Shown here piece by piece: positions 33,831 through 38,309 of a DNA stretch of 64,000 bases. Made by a program: the position numbers and the translations under genes. The stretch lies in the IMG/VR virus record IMGVR_UViG_3300009873_000001. One strand, 5' to 3'. This stretch comes from a virus (Duplodnaviria > Caudoviricetes). Every line of letters starts with the position of its first letter. Positions within the stretch are counted from its first letter, which is position 1. Below the pieces are notes generated by a model. That model worked only from the letters and a program-made list of their open reading frames with translations. It was not told where the DNA came from and did no database searches.

Positions 33831-34987
33831 CATTGCGAGTTTTTGTGGTATTCTCCGCCTCGGGGGGCTGCCAGTTGTCCAGCAAGCGCGTTCTCGACAG
33901 GATCCTCACCCCGGACGGTTTGGCACTCCTGCCAGACCCCAGCTACGAAGCCGCTCTCCGTCAGGCCGTGCCGGTGATCGCCGACGAGGCCGCGCGCTAC
34001 TACTACGAGGAGAGCGAAGAGGAGAACTGGGATCAGGTCGAGCAGATCCGCAACGTCGCTCCGCCCTACGACCTCATGTGGATCGAGTATCGCGCGCCGA
34101 AGTTCATTCGCTCGAACGTGTATGGCGTGACGCCCTGGAATCCCAGGCAGTACGTGCAGTCCGGCACGCTGTTCACCTACTCGGAGCCTGACGCCTTTCC
34201 GCCGCAGTTCATACAAGACTTCTCCCCTGACGCGCGCTGGATCGCCCAGGCGGATATCTTTCGCGTGTATCCGCCCGGGTGCGGCCCGCTGTCCGTGTTG
34301 GGAGACCCGGGGATCGACACCGAGCTACCGATCCTGGAGTGGTCGCTGTTCTACGCAGTCGGCCAGGACGGAAAGTTACTAGAGCAGACAGGCCCGCCAG
34401 CCCCGCCGATTCCAGGCCAGCCTGAGCTGCCGCAGTTCGCCGGCAAGCAAGGCGTCTTTCGCTCCGTTCCGCCCAAGCTGATCCGCGACATGTTCGGCTT
34501 CGACAACGAGTCGCTCTGGCGTGACCAGGAGGCGCGCGACAACTTCCTCATGATGGCCGGGAATCACATACCAGACTTGAACGTAGGCCTGCTCGCGCTA
34601 TACCTCATGCACAGCCGCGGGGCTCAACTCAAGACGCAGCACGTTCCAGAAGCTGTGCGCAGGAAGCGCGAGCGGCGCGGCAAGGCCGCGGGCGTCGTCT
34701 ACAAGGTGCTCGATATCGGCCTGCCCATGAGGCAGCCCCTCAAGGAAGCCAAGCGCGAAGGGCAGGGGCTCGAGCACGCGCTGCGCACGCACCTGCGTCG
34801 CGGCAACTTCGCCGTCTACACGCCCGAGAAGCCGCACGTCAGCGGCTACGTGGGCAGCATGTGGCGTCGCCCGACGGTCGTGGGCGCCGGGCCTGGCCGC
34901 GTAGAGAAGGTCTATCGGTCCAAGACGCCAGCCGAGATCCTCGAAGAGGCCGCTAGGCGCAGGCAGGAGCGGCGGCAGCGGTCCTGA
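33779..34987 (+). CDS. phage-type hypothetical protein (true start probably downstream)
   Basis: PPYDLMWIEY and C-terminal RTHLRRGNF..Y...WRRP.VVG. Confidence 0.7.
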   Translation: MDLVRAGHARSAQADNLTLRVFVVFSASGGCQLSSKRVLDRILTPDGLALLPDPSYEAALRQAVPVIADEAARYYYEESEEENWDQVEQIRNVAPPYDLMWIEYRAPKFIRSNVYGVTPWNPRQYVQSGTLFTYSEPDAFPPQFIQDFSPDARWIAQADIFRVYPPGCGPLSVLGDPGIDTELPILEWSLFYAVGQDGKLLEQTGPPAPPIPGQPELPQFAGKQGVFRSVPPKLIRDMFGFDNESLWRDQEARDNFLMMAGNHIPDLNVGLLALYLMHSRGAQLKTQHVPEAVRRKRERRGKAAGVVYKVLDIGLPMRQPLKEAKREGQGLEHALRTHLRRGNFAVYTPEKPHVSGYVGSMWRRPTVVGAGPGRVEKVYRSKTPAEILEEAARRRQERRQRS

Positions 34988-35037
34988 TTTTTTGTCCGCT
35001 CCACCGGCTCGTTCGTCTTGGTTGGTGGAGGTGCGCT

Positions 35038-35301
35038 ATGAACTGCGCTGAGGCCGCCGCCCTGGGCGATCTGGCCATGCTCGACCACGCCAAGTCGTGC
35101 ATTGCCTGCAAAGGCGTTCTCTATCGCGCCGGCAAGTGGAAGGCCGGCTGCCAAGATCAGGCTCTTGGCCAGCGGGCGAGCCAGAGCCTCGACGAACTCG
35201 GATCACACCCGGAACTGCTAGCGCACGTCGAATCGTGCGCAGCGTGCGCTGCGGAGGTCGACGACTTCCGGGCATTCTGCAGTGATTGGCGCAGCGCGTA
35301 G
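35038..35301 (+). CDS. small Cys/His protein with two HxxxCxxC motifs
   Basis: HAKSCIAC and HVESCAAC resemble zinc-binding anti-sigma (ZAS) motifs; GGAGGT RBS. Confidence 0.6.
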   Translation: MNCAEAAALGDLAMLDHAKSCIACKGVLYRAGKWKAGCQDQALGQRASQSLDELGSHPELLAHVESCAACAAEVDDFRAFCSDWRSA

Positions 35302-35416
35302 ATTTTGACCATATCCCCGCAAACGTCCTAGTTTTGAGCATTTGGCAACACGACAGGATTCCGCTGGACTGCGGTCGCGGTGTCCGTGTAGAACAACGCC
35401 GCGAAAGAGGACGCTC

Positions 35417-35956
35417 ATGGCCGCCAGGGACAAGACAAAAACGACCGGCTACAAAATCCAGCACGCCTTGCGCGAGCTGGCCCACCGGCGCGATATCGTC
35501 GAGAACCAGTTCCGCACCAACCTCGAAGCGTTCCCAGACGAGCAGAAGAAGAACCCGACCAACCTCGATCAGCAGCTGCTCAAGATCGAGCGGGTCACCG
35601 CCGGCCTGCAGGTCTTGCAGGCGCGCTACAACCTGGCCGTCCCCTGCAAGGTGGCTGGGTTCGAGGCGGCGCTGACGCTCCACGACTGCGTGAAGCTCGT
35701 GGGTGCGTATGGTCGCGCCGAGAAGCGCTGGCGCACCGCCGCCAAGGAGAAGGAGTCCTCCGGCTACTACGGCTCCGAGAAGACCCGCGACCGTGACGCG
35801 CTGGTCAGCTCCAGGACCGTGCCGATCGACACCGCCGTCGAGATGGCCACCACCTACGGACGCCGCGCCAACGCGCTGCGGGAAGCGATCCAGACTGGAA
35901 ACACAACGGAGCTTGAGTTCGAAGGGGTCTCCGACCTCTTCGAGTTCGTCTCCTAG
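35417..35956 (+). CDS. long-helix coiled-coil protein, resembling the DIP1984-like family
   Basis: AGAGGA RBS; all-helical pattern with Q.RYN and terminal LREAIQTGN.TELE; family recalled, not searched. Confidence 0.65.
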   Translation: MAARDKTKTTGYKIQHALRELAHRRDIVENQFRTNLEAFPDEQKKNPTNLDQQLLKIERVTAGLQVLQARYNLAVPCKVAGFEAALTLHDCVKLVGAYGRAEKRWRTAAKEKESSGYYGSEKTRDRDALVSSRTVPIDTAVEMATTYGRRANALREAIQTGNTTELEFEGVSDLFEFVS

Positions 35957-36140
35957 GTGGAGAGGGCGTTCAACTTGGAGCGGTTCGCGCCGCAACTCGT
36001 ATACGCGGAACGGACGTGTCTTCGGCTGCTGCGTGACAAGCGGGGTTTTGCGACGGGTCACTCCGACGCGCTTCCGTGACTGCCTCAACCCGAGATCCAT
36101 ATCCGTTCGAGCGTCTTCCTCTGTTCTGCTCCTCTCCACC
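35956..36140 (+). ncRNA. candidate 185-nt rod-shaped structured RNA
   Basis: Closing stem GGTGGAGAGG / CCTCTCCACC, nested inner stems, own downstream terminator. Confidence 0.6.
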
Positions 36141-36156
36141 GCCTACACTTTCCCCT

Positions 36157-36200
36157 GCCGAGGCCCGGACGCAGCAGTAGCTCCGGGCCTCGGTCTTTTT
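36157..36200 (+). terminator. rho-independent terminator
   Basis: 13-bp stem GCCGAGGCCCGGA / TCCGGGCCTCGGT followed by TTTTT. Confidence 0.85.
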
Positions 36201-36202
36201 GG

Positions 36203-36231
36203 TTGAATCATGCCTGGCGCTCGCGTAGCAT
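36203..36231 (+). promoter_or_regulatory. sigma70-type promoter of tmRNA
   Basis: TTGAAT-17bp-TAGCAT, 12 nt before the tmRNA 5' end. Confidence 0.7.
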
Positions 36232-36243
36232 GGGCGGGCCTTC

Positions 36244-36684
36244 GGGGACGAATTGGTATCGACTGAAAGGAGGAAGGAGATCGGTGCGCGCCGAGGTTGA
36301 TCGGTGGGACTCGCTAAAAGCCGATCAGATTCCATCTGCCAACGTCAACAACGTCAGCACCCCCGACTGGCTGAGCGACGAGTCGCTCGCGTCCTTCATG
36401 GACGCGGTCGAGTCCGAGCAGCTGGTCGCCGCGATCTAGTAGCAGCTAGATCGGCGAGTCCTGTGGAGCCTCCCGCCTCAGAGGCAAAGCAGGGCTGGGT
36501 CAGCAAATGAGGCTGGGTCGAAAGTCAGGCGACTGGACTGAGACCGAGATCATGTGACCGCTGGAGGCCGGATCTGGCGTTGAGCCCAGGCCGGCTTCGA
36601 GAGCCGCAAGGCAGCGCTCGACTACGCGCGTAGAGCCGCTTCTGAAACCTTGACAGGACCCGGGTTCGAACCCCGGCGTCTCCA
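36244..36684 (+). ncRNA. ssrA: transfer-messenger RNA (tmRNA)
   Basis: 5' GGGGACG pairs with 3' CGTCTCC-A including the G3.U wobble; T arm CCGGG-TTCGAAC-CCCGG; pseudoknot 1 (CGAG/CTCG, TGATCGGT/GCCGATCA); tag frame from GCC AAC at 36338 to TAG TAG; CCA not encoded. Confidence 0.93.
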
Positions 36685-36700
36685 TTCGCCCGACCGGCAG

Positions 36701-36730
36701 GCAGCAGCGAGCTTCACGGCTCGCTGTTGT
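36701..36730 (+). terminator. hairpin downstream of tmRNA
   Basis: GCAGCAGCGAGC / GCTCGCTGTTGT stem. Confidence 0.6.
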
Positions 36731-36731
36731 C

Positions 36732-36765
36732 GTTTGCGGCCGGCCACTGTTTGCGGCCGGCCACT
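36732..36765. repeat. 17-bp perfect tandem duplication
   Basis: GTTTGCGGCCGGCCACT twice, just upstream of the -10 box of the second collagen gene. Confidence 0.9.
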
Positions 36766-36788
36766 GCCTGCCCTGTGATACTAGAGGC

Positions 36789-38309
36789 ATGCCTGGCCCA
36801 ATGTTTGAGTTCTTCCCGTTCTCTGGCGCGACGCCCGGTCCGACTGGCCCCACAGGCTCAGCTGGCTCTTCCGGCCCTACAGGACCAGCAGGCGGGCCGA
36901 CTGGCCCAGCAGGGCCAGCTGGACCGACCGGGCCAGCTGGCGGCCCGACCGGAGCCACCGGCGCTTCAGGAACGCCTGGACCGACAGGTCCGCCGGGCGG
37001 CCCGACAGGCCCGGCAGGCCCGACGGGACCCCCTGGAGCGGACGGCGCACAGGGGCCTGCCGGACCCGCTGGCCCTTCAGGCACAGACGGGCAGACTGGT
37101 TCAACTGGCGCCACGGGCTCTGTAGGGCCAGCTCTGGCTTCGCGCAGAACCTTCTCGCCTACACGCCTCGTGGCCGAGGGTGCCTCCATTCCAGCCACGC
37201 CTAGCTCCGTGCTCAACCTGGCCGACCTGAGCAACCGCGACCCGTGGGTCAATCTCGACGAGGTCTATTCCCTGTCGCGATTCGATCTGGTCGTAGCCAC
37301 CGAAGAAGGCTCGGTCACTCGCTATCCAGGTCTGAGCTTCGCCTCTCGAGTTGCTCTTCTGGCTTGGCTGAACGCAAACGTCCCCTCTGACGGCAGCGCC
37401 TTCCTGGCCTCGGCGACCATGACGGCCTGGGACGAAGTCGACCAGTCCATGCCGCCAGTCACCAAGGTGTGGGGCAAGAACGGCGCGCTGTCTCGCCTCA
37501 GAAAGAACGACTTCTACAAGAGCCCCAGCCGCGGTTATGTCGAGCTAAACTCCTGGCCTGATCTCGACGTCTTCCTTGCCGCGGCCTGGGAGGCGGTCTG
37601 GCCCGGCGACCCGCTGCCCTCTCCGCTCACGCCTGACGTCCGAGCTGCGTTCTGGTGGGCCAAGAACCGCCGGAACCTGTACGAGATCGAGAAGAGCTTC
37701 GGAATTCAACCGTCTTTCGGCAGAACGTCCCGCGCTGGTGCCGGCGGTCCGTTCGGACCTACCGGCACAGGTTTCAGCTGGGCCTATCAGTCGAGTGGAG
37801 ATCCGGCATACGGGATCGTCGATTCTTCCGGCGGCGGGTTTGTACAGGTTCTTCCGCTATCTCAGTTCAGGAGAGACAACCGAAAGATCTCTGACGCCGG
37901 CCGCAGCGCGGTGTTTCTGGCGCCCATTCAAGGCGGCGTGAACGAACGCGCGGTGTGGATCAAGCCGGTGGGGATCGACCAGATTTACCTCTCGTGGTTC
38001 GACCCGACGCTCTATCGAGCAGAGGCCATTGTCACGCCCAACATAGACGGCAAGCGCGAAGCGCGCGTCCTCACAGCCTCTCGTTCGCCGTCCGTGGTTC
38101 GGGACGCCTCCGGCGCCTTCACCAAGGATCAGTGGTATCGGGGCCAGCAAATTTCTGTTTCGCAGGGCGGGCACCGCCACGGGCCTGGGCGCTGCCACTT
38201 CTACCTGCGCGAGCTGGCCACGGGCAAGGTGAGCGAGCTCAGCACGGCCAGGGTCGAGTACCTCGACGACCGAACCCTGTCCGCCGGTATGGCACGCGTG
38301 GTAAGCTAA
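36789..38309 (+). CDS. second collagen-like fibre protein with large C-terminal domain
   Basis: [11 protein letters not shown] start; GPT/GPA triplets; about 390-aa non-collagen C-terminus. Confidence 0.9.

What the first reader, a model, noticed from the sequence alone, without database searches (positions are those of the whole stretch)
35417..36200. Coiled-coil gene plus 185-nt rod-shaped RNA in one terminated unit: candidate ribonucleoprotein system
Seen: the closing stem begins inside the stop codon (GGTGGAGAGG 35956-35965 with CCTCTCCACC 36131-36140). Nested stems are ACGC/GCGT, GAACGGA (36008-36014) / TCCGTTC (36102-36108), GGGTT/AACCC and GTCAC/GTGAC, with a large asymmetric internal bubble. 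A separate strong terminator follows, so the rod is not the terminator. The protein resembles DIP1984-like helical proteins, which I recall being followed by stem-closed non-coding tracts in other phages (unverified). Inference: protein and RNA act together as scaffold, sponge or toxin-antitoxin pair. The size and shape also allow a 6S-like RNA polymerase decoy.
Basis: partly seen in the sequence, partly recalled or inferred. Interest (0 to 1): 0.8.

Follow-up and report, generated by a model that had tools for sequence, protein, structure and literature searches.

The report
Huge-phage protein with partner RNA
Right behind a small helical protein gene, this huge phage encodes a folded RNA of about 185 bases; the same gene-plus-RNA pair recurs in at least 22 related lineages and matches no catalogued RNA or protein family, so it is probably an undescribed protein-RNA particle.

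Summary
The stems are at the stated coordinates and a separate terminator follows. The window's own fold is not more stable than shuffles (z -1.1), so the case rests on comparison.

- **Protein family:** the 179-aa protein belongs to a family of at least 611 clusters with no Pfam, NCBIfam, PHROG or PDB sequence match. Its model matches one solved fold, 3KDQ, end to end (Z 13.0).
- **RNA:** in 22 of 23 lineages (41-68% G+C) the gene is followed on the same strand by 135-190 nt closed by a long-range stem of different sequence. The stem has at least 10 Watson-Crick pairs in 16 of 23 lineages, against 4% of control windows.
- **Shared features:** G.U pairs that fit only the + strand, a similar branch layout, and a placed CUNNNNNCUG motif in 15 of 20 lineages (1 expected).
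- **Context:** no other gene is conserved nearby, but tRNA or tmRNA genes usually are. Here a tmRNA gene follows directly.
- **Rfam:** no family matches, including 6S.

My reading is an undescribed ribonucleoprotein made from one transcription unit. Binding and function are inferred, not shown. The scan has reported DIP1984-fold genes with partner RNAs on other DNA. I found no paper describing them.

The parts
35305..35334 (+). Promoter-like site of the unit: TTGACC (35305-35310), 18-nt spacer, TAGTTT (35329-35334)
   Evidence: Both hexamers are conserved in L001 and L003 while the spacer varies. The strict consensus scan did not call it, so this is inferred.
35404..35411 (+). Shine-Dalgarno-like AAAGAGGA, 5 nt before the ATG
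   Evidence: Read from the sequence. Conserved in L003; GAAGGGGG in L001.
35417..35956 (+). Gene for a 179-aa protein of four long helices with the DIP1984 (3KDQ) fold. It belongs to an unannotated family of at least 611 clusters at 50% identity.
   Evidence: ORF. Profile search: 611 representatives, 547 at E<=1e-10. No Pfam, NCBIfam, PHROG or PDB sequence hit. AF2 model pLDDT 93.7. 3KDQ_A Z 13.0, rmsd 3.0, 149 of 152 residues aligned. Foldseek TM 0.67/0.78. Homodimer prediction 0.70 against 0.00 for controls.
35956..36140 (+). Structured RNA of 185 nt, closing stem to closing stem, a three-way junction
   Evidence: Equivalent RNAs occur in 22 of 23 lineages. No Rfam match.
35956..35966 (+). 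P1 5' arm, GGTGGAGAGGG, purine-rich. It starts at the last base of the stop codon.
   Evidence: The 5' arms are purine-rich in most lineages (mean 0.78).
35980..35993 (+). P2, a small 5' hairpin (GCGG-UUCGCG-CCGC)
   Evidence: Two compensatory pairs within the clade. A small first hairpin is found in most lineages.
36003..36114 (+). P3, a long irregular arm. Its base includes ACGC/GCGT and GAACGGA/TCCGTTC.
   Evidence: GAACGGA/TCCGTTC becomes GGGCGGA/TCCGCCC in L001. A long arm of 80-116 nt is present in most lineages.
36119..36128 (+). Conserved 3' motif CUCUGUUCUG (CUNNNNNCUG: two CU-initiated 7-nt units), next to and running into the P1 3' arm
   Evidence: Present in the last 36 nt in 15 of 20 lineages against 1.0 expected. 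The CUG ends 11-15 nt before the 3' end in 13 of them. The period-7 CU signal has combined Z 4.0.
36130..36140 (+). P1 3' arm, TCCTCTCCACC, pyrimidine-rich
   Evidence: Single copy in the window.
36158..36200 (+). Intrinsic terminator: 12-bp G+C-rich stem, 12-nt loop, TCTTTTT
   Evidence: Read from the sequence. Conserved in L001 and L003.
36203..36687 (+). Neighbour, not part of the unit: promoter-like TTGAAT-17-TAGCAT (36203-36231) and a tmRNA gene (36244-36687)
   Evidence: Rfam RF00023, 96.1 bits. The same layout occurs in L001 and L003. tmRNA also follows the module in L027 and L035.

Best explanation
This is a self-contained two-part module of a huge (273.6-kb contig) uncultured phage. 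It has one promoter, a gene for a small helical protein with the DIP1984 fold, a 185-nt structured RNA on the same strand, and a terminator.

Shown:
- The RNA structure (a closing stem clamping both ends, a small 5' hairpin and a long arm) and a short CU-rich motif beside the 3' arm are conserved.
- The RNA accompanies this protein family in nearly every lineage examined.

Inferred:
- The RNA is made as the tail of the gene's own transcript. Its 3' end is set just after the closing stem by a terminator or, in some relatives, by the 5' processing of an abutting tRNA.
- The protein, probably as a symmetric dimer, binds the RNA near the conserved CU units and the junction. The result is a stable ribonucleoprotein.
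- Because the module usually sits among tRNA and tmRNA genes, I think its most likely role is in the phage's handling of host translation or RNA metabolism. It could act as a scaffold, or as a decoy for an RNA-directed host factor.
For: Linkage:
- 22 of 23 lineages, spanning 41-68% G+C, have a stem-closed tract of 135-190 nt starting 0-81 nt after the stop codon.
- An uninterrupted helix of at least 10 Watson-Crick pairs spanning 130-200 nt is found in 16 of 23 lineages. It is found in 4.3% of 751 control windows from the same loci.
- The arm sequences differ between lineages, so the helix is kept by covariation.

Strand and coding:
- There are 17 G.U pairs in P1 across 19 lineages. Summed helix length is 211 on the + strand and 131 if read on the - strand.
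- There is no conserved ORF, and a 1-nt deletion in L003 breaks the frame after the stop codon.

Inner structure:
- Three clades each show compensatory pairs: 10 of 54, 6 of 27 and 7 of 51.
- Most lineages share the same branch layout.

Homology of the RNAs: CUNNNNNCUG occurs at a fixed place near the 3' end in 15 of 20 lineages, against 1.0 expected.

Self-contained: no other protein is conserved nearby.

Protein:
- The family has at least 611 clusters.
- The model has pLDDT 93.7.
- The only full-length match among solved folds is 3KDQ, at Z 13.0. The next best is Z 8.2, over 69 residues only.
- Homodimer prediction scored 0.70, with the best of 3 controls at 0.00. That mark was reached by 20 of 30 proteins solved as pairs of one chain and by 1 of 23 solved as single chains. 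The runs agree in at least 93% of contacts and the partner's pLDDT is at least 86. If 3KDQ is a like dimer, this pass may reflect memory of that structure.

Context:
- tmRNA follows the module in the window, L001, L003, L027 and L035.
- A tRNA starts 2-4 nt after the RNA in L024 and L030.
- tRNA or tmRNA genes, all on the same strand, lie within about 3 kb in 13 of 22 lineages.

Unit boundaries: the promoter-like hexamers and the terminator are conserved in the close relatives.
Against: - No experiment or read data here shows that the RNA accumulates or that the protein binds it.
- The window RNA's own folding energy is ordinary (z -1.1).
- The protein is not markedly basic: family median pI is 8.0 and this protein's is 8.85.
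- Many of its most conserved residues fall in the predicted dimer interface rather than on an obvious RNA-binding face.
- I could not build a single consensus structure or covariance model across all lineages. Homology of the inner parts therefore rests on layout and one motif.
- The 7-nt periodicity is weak here, with two to three units, and was recognised by eye before it was tested.
- Being near tRNA genes does not define a function.
Confidence: 0.5

Rival explanations
1. The RNA is a cis-acting 3' untranslated element. It stays on the mRNA and controls the mRNA's stability or translation, for example through autoregulation by the protein or protection against 3' exonucleases. It does not act as part of a particle with a function of its own.
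For: It lies inside the gene's transcription unit between the stop codon and the terminator. In the window clade the closing stem starts in the stop codon, so a terminating ribosome and the stem would compete. I saw no promoter-like site for the RNA by reading the 3' end of the gene, and the scan called none anywhere in 34900-36900, although it also missed both promoter-like sites proposed here.
Against: A 135-190-nt three-way junction with a placed sequence motif, kept across lineages of 41-68% G+C, is far more than a stabiliser needs. The distance from stop codon to stem varies from 0 to 81 nt, so coupling to termination is not general. In L024 and L030 a tRNA abuts the stem, which would release the 3' end by tRNA processing.
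Confidence: 0.2
2. The RNA is a free-standing stable non-coding RNA of the phage tRNA island. Like other ornate phage RNAs found near tRNA genes, it works without this protein. The gene in front merely supplies the promoter.
For: The module sits in tRNA/tmRNA clusters in most phage loci, on the same strand. GOLLD and ROOL RNAs are known from my own knowledge of the literature to lie near tRNAs in phages and to assemble without proteins.
Against: The link to one protein family holds in 22 of 23 lineages even where no tRNA is nearby (L004, L016, L019, L021, L022, L032, L034). No other neighbour is conserved.
Confidence: 0.13
3. It is an RNA-guided or repeat-reading system analogous to VIPR. Protein subunits would line up on short periodic units of the RNA and expose the bases between them to recognise a nucleic-acid target.
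For: Two to three CU-initiated 7-nt units occur at a fixed place. VIPR shows that phage proteins can polymerise on short periodic RNA repeats (bioRxiv 10.64898/2026.04.26.720920). Earlier scan notes report longer rows of 7-nt units beside DIP1984-fold genes elsewhere (not checked here).
Against: The protein is a helical bundle, not a RAMP/RRM protein. There are no YNNGG runs. Only 2-3 units are present, and whole-RNA lag-7 autocorrelation is weak (window z -0.5). No hypervariable positions were demonstrated.
Confidence: 0.06
4. It is a 6S-like decoy of RNA polymerase, or a toxin-antitoxin pair with an RNA antitoxin.
For: The size (185 nt) and paired ends recall 6S RNA. A small protein next to an RNA recalls type III systems.
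Against: No Rfam 6S match appears at permissive thresholds. The RNA is branched and has no central open bubble in the consensus. There are no tandem RNA repeats. The RNA lies after the gene, not before it with a terminator in between. The protein fold matches no known toxin.
Confidence: 0.04
5. It is a chance inverted repeat, a compound terminator, or a small mobile element with terminal inverted repeats.
For: The single-sequence folding energy is not exceptional.
Against: The stem recurs at the same place in 22 of 23 lineages with different sequences and with G.U pairs. The arms and the model occur once in the 64-kb window. A separate terminator follows.
Confidence: 0.02

Closest known systems
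DIP1984 / Pfam DUF6847 (PF20935) proteins, often labelled 'septicolysin'; solved structure 3KDQ from Corynebacterium diphtheriae, function unknown
   Same: Same fold over the whole chain (Z 13.0, rmsd 3.0, 149 of 152 residues; TM 0.67/0.78) and similar size. ESM Atlas neighbours include DUF6847 clusters at TM 0.71-0.72. Earlier scan notes also describe a structured RNA behind such genes (a lead, not tested here).
   Different: There is no sequence-model match: neither PF20935 nor any NCBIfam model matches at E<=0.1, and identity to 3KDQ is 14%. This is a separate branch found so far only on uncultured contigs, many of them of huge phages. That 3KDQ is the DIP1984 protein rests on my memory and on the earlier notes.
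Ro60 (Rsr) with bacterial Y RNAs (YrlA and relatives)
   Same: One protein is paired with an RNA of 100-200 nt whose 5' and 3' ends form a long closing stem. Both are encoded next to each other, occur in bacteria and phages, and are associated with RNA-related genes.
   Different: The protein here is a 179-aa helical bundle, not a TROVE ring with a vWA domain. No Rfam Y RNA model matches. No tRNA-like module was identified in the RNA.
VIPR systems (Vipr RAMP protein plus vrRNA of GGY/NN repeats; bioRxiv 10.64898/2026.04.26.720920)
   Same: Both are phage-borne minimal modules of a small protein and an RNA, and the RNA carries short periodic units.
   Different: Vipr is an RRM/RAMP protein. vrRNAs carry 9-16 five-nt units and a 3' tail. 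Here there are no YNNGG runs and only two to three 7-nt units inside a closed three-way junction.
6S RNA
   Same: The length is about 185 nt and the ends are paired.
   Different: No model match. The RNA is branched, tied to a protein gene and phage-encoded.
Ornate phage-associated RNAs near tRNA genes (GOLLD, ROOL)
   Same: Location in phage tRNA islands and unknown function.
   Different: Those RNAs are 500-800 nt and have no fixed protein partner. Rfam holds their models and none matches.

Membership tests
DIP1984 / DUF6847 (PF20935) protein family | Match to the Pfam PF20935 model at or above its gathering score | tested here: not met
   No PF20935 hit at E<=0.1 for P0001 or for 10 other family members. 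None of the 103 profile hits carries a precomputed Pfam domain.
DIP1984 / DUF6847 (PF20935) protein family | Match to the NCBIfam 'DIP1984 family protein' model | tested here: not met
   For 8 members, NCBIfam returned only chance-level hits to unrelated models, at E>=0.008.
DIP1984 / DUF6847 (PF20935) protein family | Fold of the solved member 3KDQ (four long helices with a small sheet) over the whole chain | tested here: met
   VIA-align Z 13.0, rmsd 3.0 A, 149 of 152 residues, with the next entry at Z 8.2 over 69 residues. Foldseek probability 1.00, TM 0.67/0.78.
DIP1984 / DUF6847 (PF20935) protein family | Profile-to-profile sequence relationship to DUF6847 members | not tested
6S RNA | Match to the Rfam 6S models | tested here: not met
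   No match at E<=10 in window 34500-37500 or at E<=1 in nine relatives' loci.
6S RNA | Unbranched rod with a large central bubble flanked by closing and terminal stems | tested here: not met
   The consensus is a three-way junction with a side hairpin.
6S RNA | Binds the sigma-70 RNA polymerase holoenzyme | not testable with these tools
   Needs biochemistry.
Ro60-Y RNA | Adjacent TROVE-domain (Ro60/Rsr) protein | tested here: not met
   The partner is a helical bundle. No conserved second neighbour exists. The vWA protein next to the module in L010 has no TROVE domain.
Ro60-Y RNA | RNA with 5' and 3' ends paired in a long stem | tested here: met
   P1 of 10-14 pairs in most lineages.
VIPR | RAMP (RRM-fold) Vipr protein | tested here: not met
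   The model is almost entirely helical, with two short strands, and the best fold match is 3KDQ.
VIPR | vrRNA with at least four tandem YNNGG units | tested here: not met
   The longest run is 1-2 units in all 21 RNAs.
Type III toxin-antitoxin | Tandem direct repeats of the antitoxin RNA upstream of the toxin gene | tested here: not met
   No tandem repeats in 35300-36750. The RNA lies downstream of the gene.

The most novel reading that the evidence does not exclude
Proteins with the DIP1984 fold and their cognate stem-closed RNAs are a widespread, undescribed class of ribonucleoprotein. In huge phages a divergent branch has been placed in the tRNA/tmRNA island as part of the kit for taking over or protecting translation. 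It might work as a decoy or adaptor for host enzymes that cut or repair tRNA-like RNAs, with the CU-initiated 7-nt units as the protein's reading frame on the RNA.
Probability: 0.3. Interest if true: 0.88.

Novelty: categorically new. Interest (0 to 1): 0.72.

Why it matters
- **Scale:** a protein family of at least 611 clusters at 50% identity has no annotation in Pfam, NCBIfam or PHROGs. It turns out to carry a dedicated structured RNA with no Rfam family.
- **Rarity:** fixed protein-RNA pairs are rare, and each one has opened a field. Examples are Ro with Y RNA, 6S with polymerase, CRISPR, OMEGA and VIPR.
- **A handle on function:** this pair gives a concrete lead on the unknown function of the DIP1984 fold, which was solved in 2009 and is still unassigned.
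- **Huge-phage biology:** it adds a component to the poorly understood tRNA/tmRNA islands of huge phages.
- **Testable now:** the unit is small (about 900 bp) and can be expressed, pulled down and solved.

Tried and rejected
- **One covariance model for all lineages.** Model R1, built from the window clade, finds only that clade. MAFFT alignments of 20 or 10 RNAs give no consensus structure (sandbox trials). Cross-lineage structure therefore rests on anchored tests.
- **Expression.** No RNA holder is listed for the stretch. A run labelled metatranscriptomic from the same sample (a guess, it may be DNA) gave one 389-nt contig covering only the tmRNA (36251-36639). It gave no cover of the gene or the RNA. 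A part without cover says nothing either way.
- **Cultured relatives.** No tblastn match in 50,697 phage records or 72,556 plasmids. No blastn match of the region in phages. The genome-contig scan found none. The first viral scan with the narrow alignment found none, and the 144-row alignment was too diverse to scan with.
- **Whole genome.** None is held for this window.
- **Ro60/Y RNA idea for L010.** The vWA neighbour has no TROVE domain.
- **Conserved neighbours.** None beyond the gene itself and its antisense shadow frame.
- **Repeats.** No VIPR-type repeats and no tandem repeats.
- **Periodicity.** Whole-RNA 7-nt autocorrelation is weak: combined Z 2.1, window z -0.5.
- **Translation of the tract.** The in-frame 40-codon ORF after the TAG is not kept in L003.
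- **Consensus promoter and terminator scan.** It called neither the promoter-like sites nor the terminator, because of its strict limits.
- **Literature.** No paper in the library contains DIP1984 or DUF6847. 'Septicolysin' appears only as an annotation label. The genomic-language-model survey of non-coding space does not mention this pair.

Full report
**Setting.** The window has 61-68% G+C. No whole genome is held for it. The gene in question lies on a single contig of 273,580 bp. The window holds a collagen-like tail-fibre gene, a glycosyltransferase and a methyltransferase with phage-family matches, one tRNA and one tmRNA. I read it as a huge uncultured phage from activated sludge.

**The observation.**
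- The stop codon TAG ends at 35956, and its G is the first base of GGTGGAGAGG.
- CCTCTCCACC is at 36131-36140.
- A separate terminator follows: a 12-pair G+C-rich stem at 36158-36169 / 36182-36193, a 12-nt loop, then TCTTTTT.
- The minimum-energy fold contains the closing stem and the outer nested stems.
- Its energy is ordinary: z -1.12 on the + strand and -1.98 on the - strand.

On this sequence alone the structure would not be convincing.

**The protein.** The 179-aa product has no family.
- In Pfam only a sub-threshold DUF1978 hit appears. Nothing real appears in NCBIfam, PHROGs or PDB sequences.
- A profile search of 1.84 billion representatives found 611 relatives, 547 of them at E<=1e-10. 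Almost all are 163-190 aa.
- A second search found 103 more, none with a Pfam domain and all named hypothetical.
- With 144 of them as the alignment, AlphaFold gave a confident model: pLDDT 93.7, four long helices and a small sheet.
- Against 48,161 solved chains one entry stands alone. 3KDQ, an unassigned Corynebacterium diphtheriae protein, scores Z 13.0 at rmsd 3.0 A with 149 of 152 residues aligned. The next entry scores Z 8.2 over 69 residues. Foldseek agrees, with TM 0.67/0.78.
- ESM Atlas neighbours include DUF6847 'septicolysin' clusters.

A symmetric homodimer is predicted with score 0.70, against 0.00 for the best of 3 controls. That mark was reached by 20 of 30 proteins solved as pairs of one chain and by 1 of 23 solved as single chains. 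The runs share at least 93% of contacts and the pLDDT is at least 86. If 3KDQ is a like dimer, the pass may come from memory of that structure.

**The RNA in relatives.** I fetched the DNA around relatives from assemblies, metagenome contigs and viral contigs. This gave 23 lineages with 41-68% G+C. Many of the contigs are 80-529 kb, and one is 859 kb.
- *Closing stem.* In each lineage I looked for a long-range helix in the 300 nt after the stop codon. The three closest relatives keep the same arms. All the others have different arm sequences, for example GGACGGAGAGA/TCTCTCCGTCC, CAGGTGAGAAG/TTTCTTACCTG, GGGTAGTGGGAG/CTCCCACTACCC, GAGGCGAAGA/TCTTCGCCTC and CGTGTAAGTC/GACTTACACG.
- *Against chance.* An uninterrupted helix with at least 10 Watson-Crick pairs spanning 130-200 nt occurs in 16 of 23 lineages. 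It occurs in 4.3% of 751 control windows taken elsewhere in the same loci. For at least 9 pairs the figures are 20 of 23 against 12%.
- *Weak cases.* L004/L015 have an 8-pair stem and L033 a bulged one. Only L026 remains unresolved.
- *Strand.* The 5' arm is purine-rich (mean 0.78). P1 holds 17 G.U pairs across 19 lineages, and these would be A-C mismatches on the other strand. Summed helix length is 211 against 131. The RNA is therefore read on the gene's strand.
- *Not coding.* No ORF is conserved. The 40 codons in frame after the TAG are lost in L003 through a 1-nt deletion.

**Inner structure and homology.**
- Three clades that can be aligned each show compensatory changes: 10 of 54 pairs in the window clade, 6 of 27 and 7 of 51.
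- In the window clade these fall in a small hairpin (35980-35993) and at the base of the long arm, where GAACGGA/TCCGTTC becomes GGGCGGA/TCCGCCC.
- With P1 enforced, most lineages fold into the same layout: P1, a small 5' hairpin, and a long arm of 80-116 nt.
- Sequence conservation is low, with one clear exception. CUNNNNNCUG lies in the last 36 nt in 15 of 20 lineages, against 1.0 expected from shuffles. Its CUG ends 11-15 nt before the 3' end in 13 of them. In the window it is at 36119-36128.
- CU dinucleotides in the last 42 nt favour a 7-nt spacing (combined Z 4.0, next best period Z 3.2). The whole RNA shows little 7-nt periodicity. I therefore describe two to three 7-nt units, not an array.
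- No Rfam family matches the RNA in the window or in 18 relatives' loci.

**Context.**
- No protein gene other than the family itself is conserved next to the module.
- RNA genes are. A tmRNA follows in the window, L001, L003, L027 and L035. A tRNA begins 2-4 nt after the closing stem in L024 and L030.
- tRNA or tmRNA genes, all on the same strand, lie within about 3 kb in 13 of 22 lineages.
- In L017, L021 and L032 the closing stem is followed directly by a U run. In other lineages a separate hairpin terminator follows. The 3' end of the RNA seems to be set just after P1 in every arrangement.
- Upstream of the window gene, TTGACC-18-TAGTTT is conserved in the close relatives while the spacer varies. 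This gives one unit from promoter to terminator.

**Interpretation.** The shown facts are a conserved structured RNA on the gene's strand, tied to one protein family and to nothing else.
- The step to a ribonucleoprotein is inference. I give the whole statement 0.5.
- The main rivals are a purely cis-acting 3' element (0.2) and a protein-independent RNA of the tRNA island (0.13).
- A VIPR-like repeat-reading system is an attractive analogy. Its defining features are not met, since there is no RAMP fold and there are no YNNGG runs.
- The 6S and toxin-antitoxin readings fail their tests.

**Relation to earlier work.**
- The scan's own notes report DIP1984/DUF6847-fold genes followed by structured RNAs with 7-nt units in bacteria, archaea, megaplasmids and huge phages.
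- I used these notes as leads only. Here I could confirm the gene-RNA linkage and a short 7-nt pattern. I could not confirm a long heptad row or an RtcB neighbour.
- I found no paper that describes the pair.

**What failed.**
- A general covariance model could not be built.
- No RNA data bear on the element.
- No cultured phage or plasmid carries the family.

Noticed in passing
window 36203-36687: A phage tmRNA gene (Rfam 96.1 bits, 444 nt) that ARAGORN does not call. From the resume codon GCC at 36338 the tag reading frame gives 33 residues ending in VAAI, followed by two stop codons, which is far longer than usual tags. It has its own conserved promoter-like TTGAAT-17-TAGCAT. A run labelled metatranscriptomic from the same sample holds one 389-nt contig that covers only 36251-36639.
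   Followed up: partly
window 35305-35334 and 36203-36231: Both transcription units begin with a similar promoter-like pair, TTGAC/TTGAA followed 17-18 nt later by TAGNNT. The second hexamer begins TAG rather than TAT. This may be the phage's or host's promoter type.
   Followed up: partly
L010 5735-5850: About 40 nt after the partner RNA's terminator hairpin lies a 116-nt element. It has paired ends (CCGAGTGA...TCACTCGG) and a perfect T-arm-like GTGGGTTCGAATCCCAC. Neither ARAGORN nor Rfam calls it. It may be a tRNA with an insert or a tRNA-like RNA. A vWA protein without a TROVE domain follows.
   Followed up: partly
L025 3649-4227, L027 3979-4533, L035 4198-4758: In three huge-phage relatives an HNH endonuclease gene of 185-193 aa lies downstream of the tRNA/tmRNA genes that follow the module.
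   Followed up: partly
L010 4216-5001, L012 236-1039, L019 2222-2998: In one clade a methionine-aminopeptidase-like M24 peptidase gene ends within a few bases of the start of the family gene (sharing one base in L010), suggesting co-translation in that clade only.
   Followed up: partly
window 35038-35301: An 87-aa Cys-rich ORF just upstream, with CxxC and HxxxCxxC motifs. From memory it resembles the zinc-binding region of anti-sigma factors. It has no Pfam hit.
   Followed up: no
window 36789-38309: A 506-aa protein with an N-terminal collagen-like Gly-X-Y tract that matches phage tail-fibre families. It starts about 100 nt after the tmRNA gene.
   Followed up: no
window 35036-36139 (- strand): A 367-codon open frame runs antisense through the gene and the RNA. 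Similar antisense frames appear in 13 loci as a by-product of the conserved gene, so I read it as a shadow frame of G+C-rich DNA, not a gene.
   Followed up: partly
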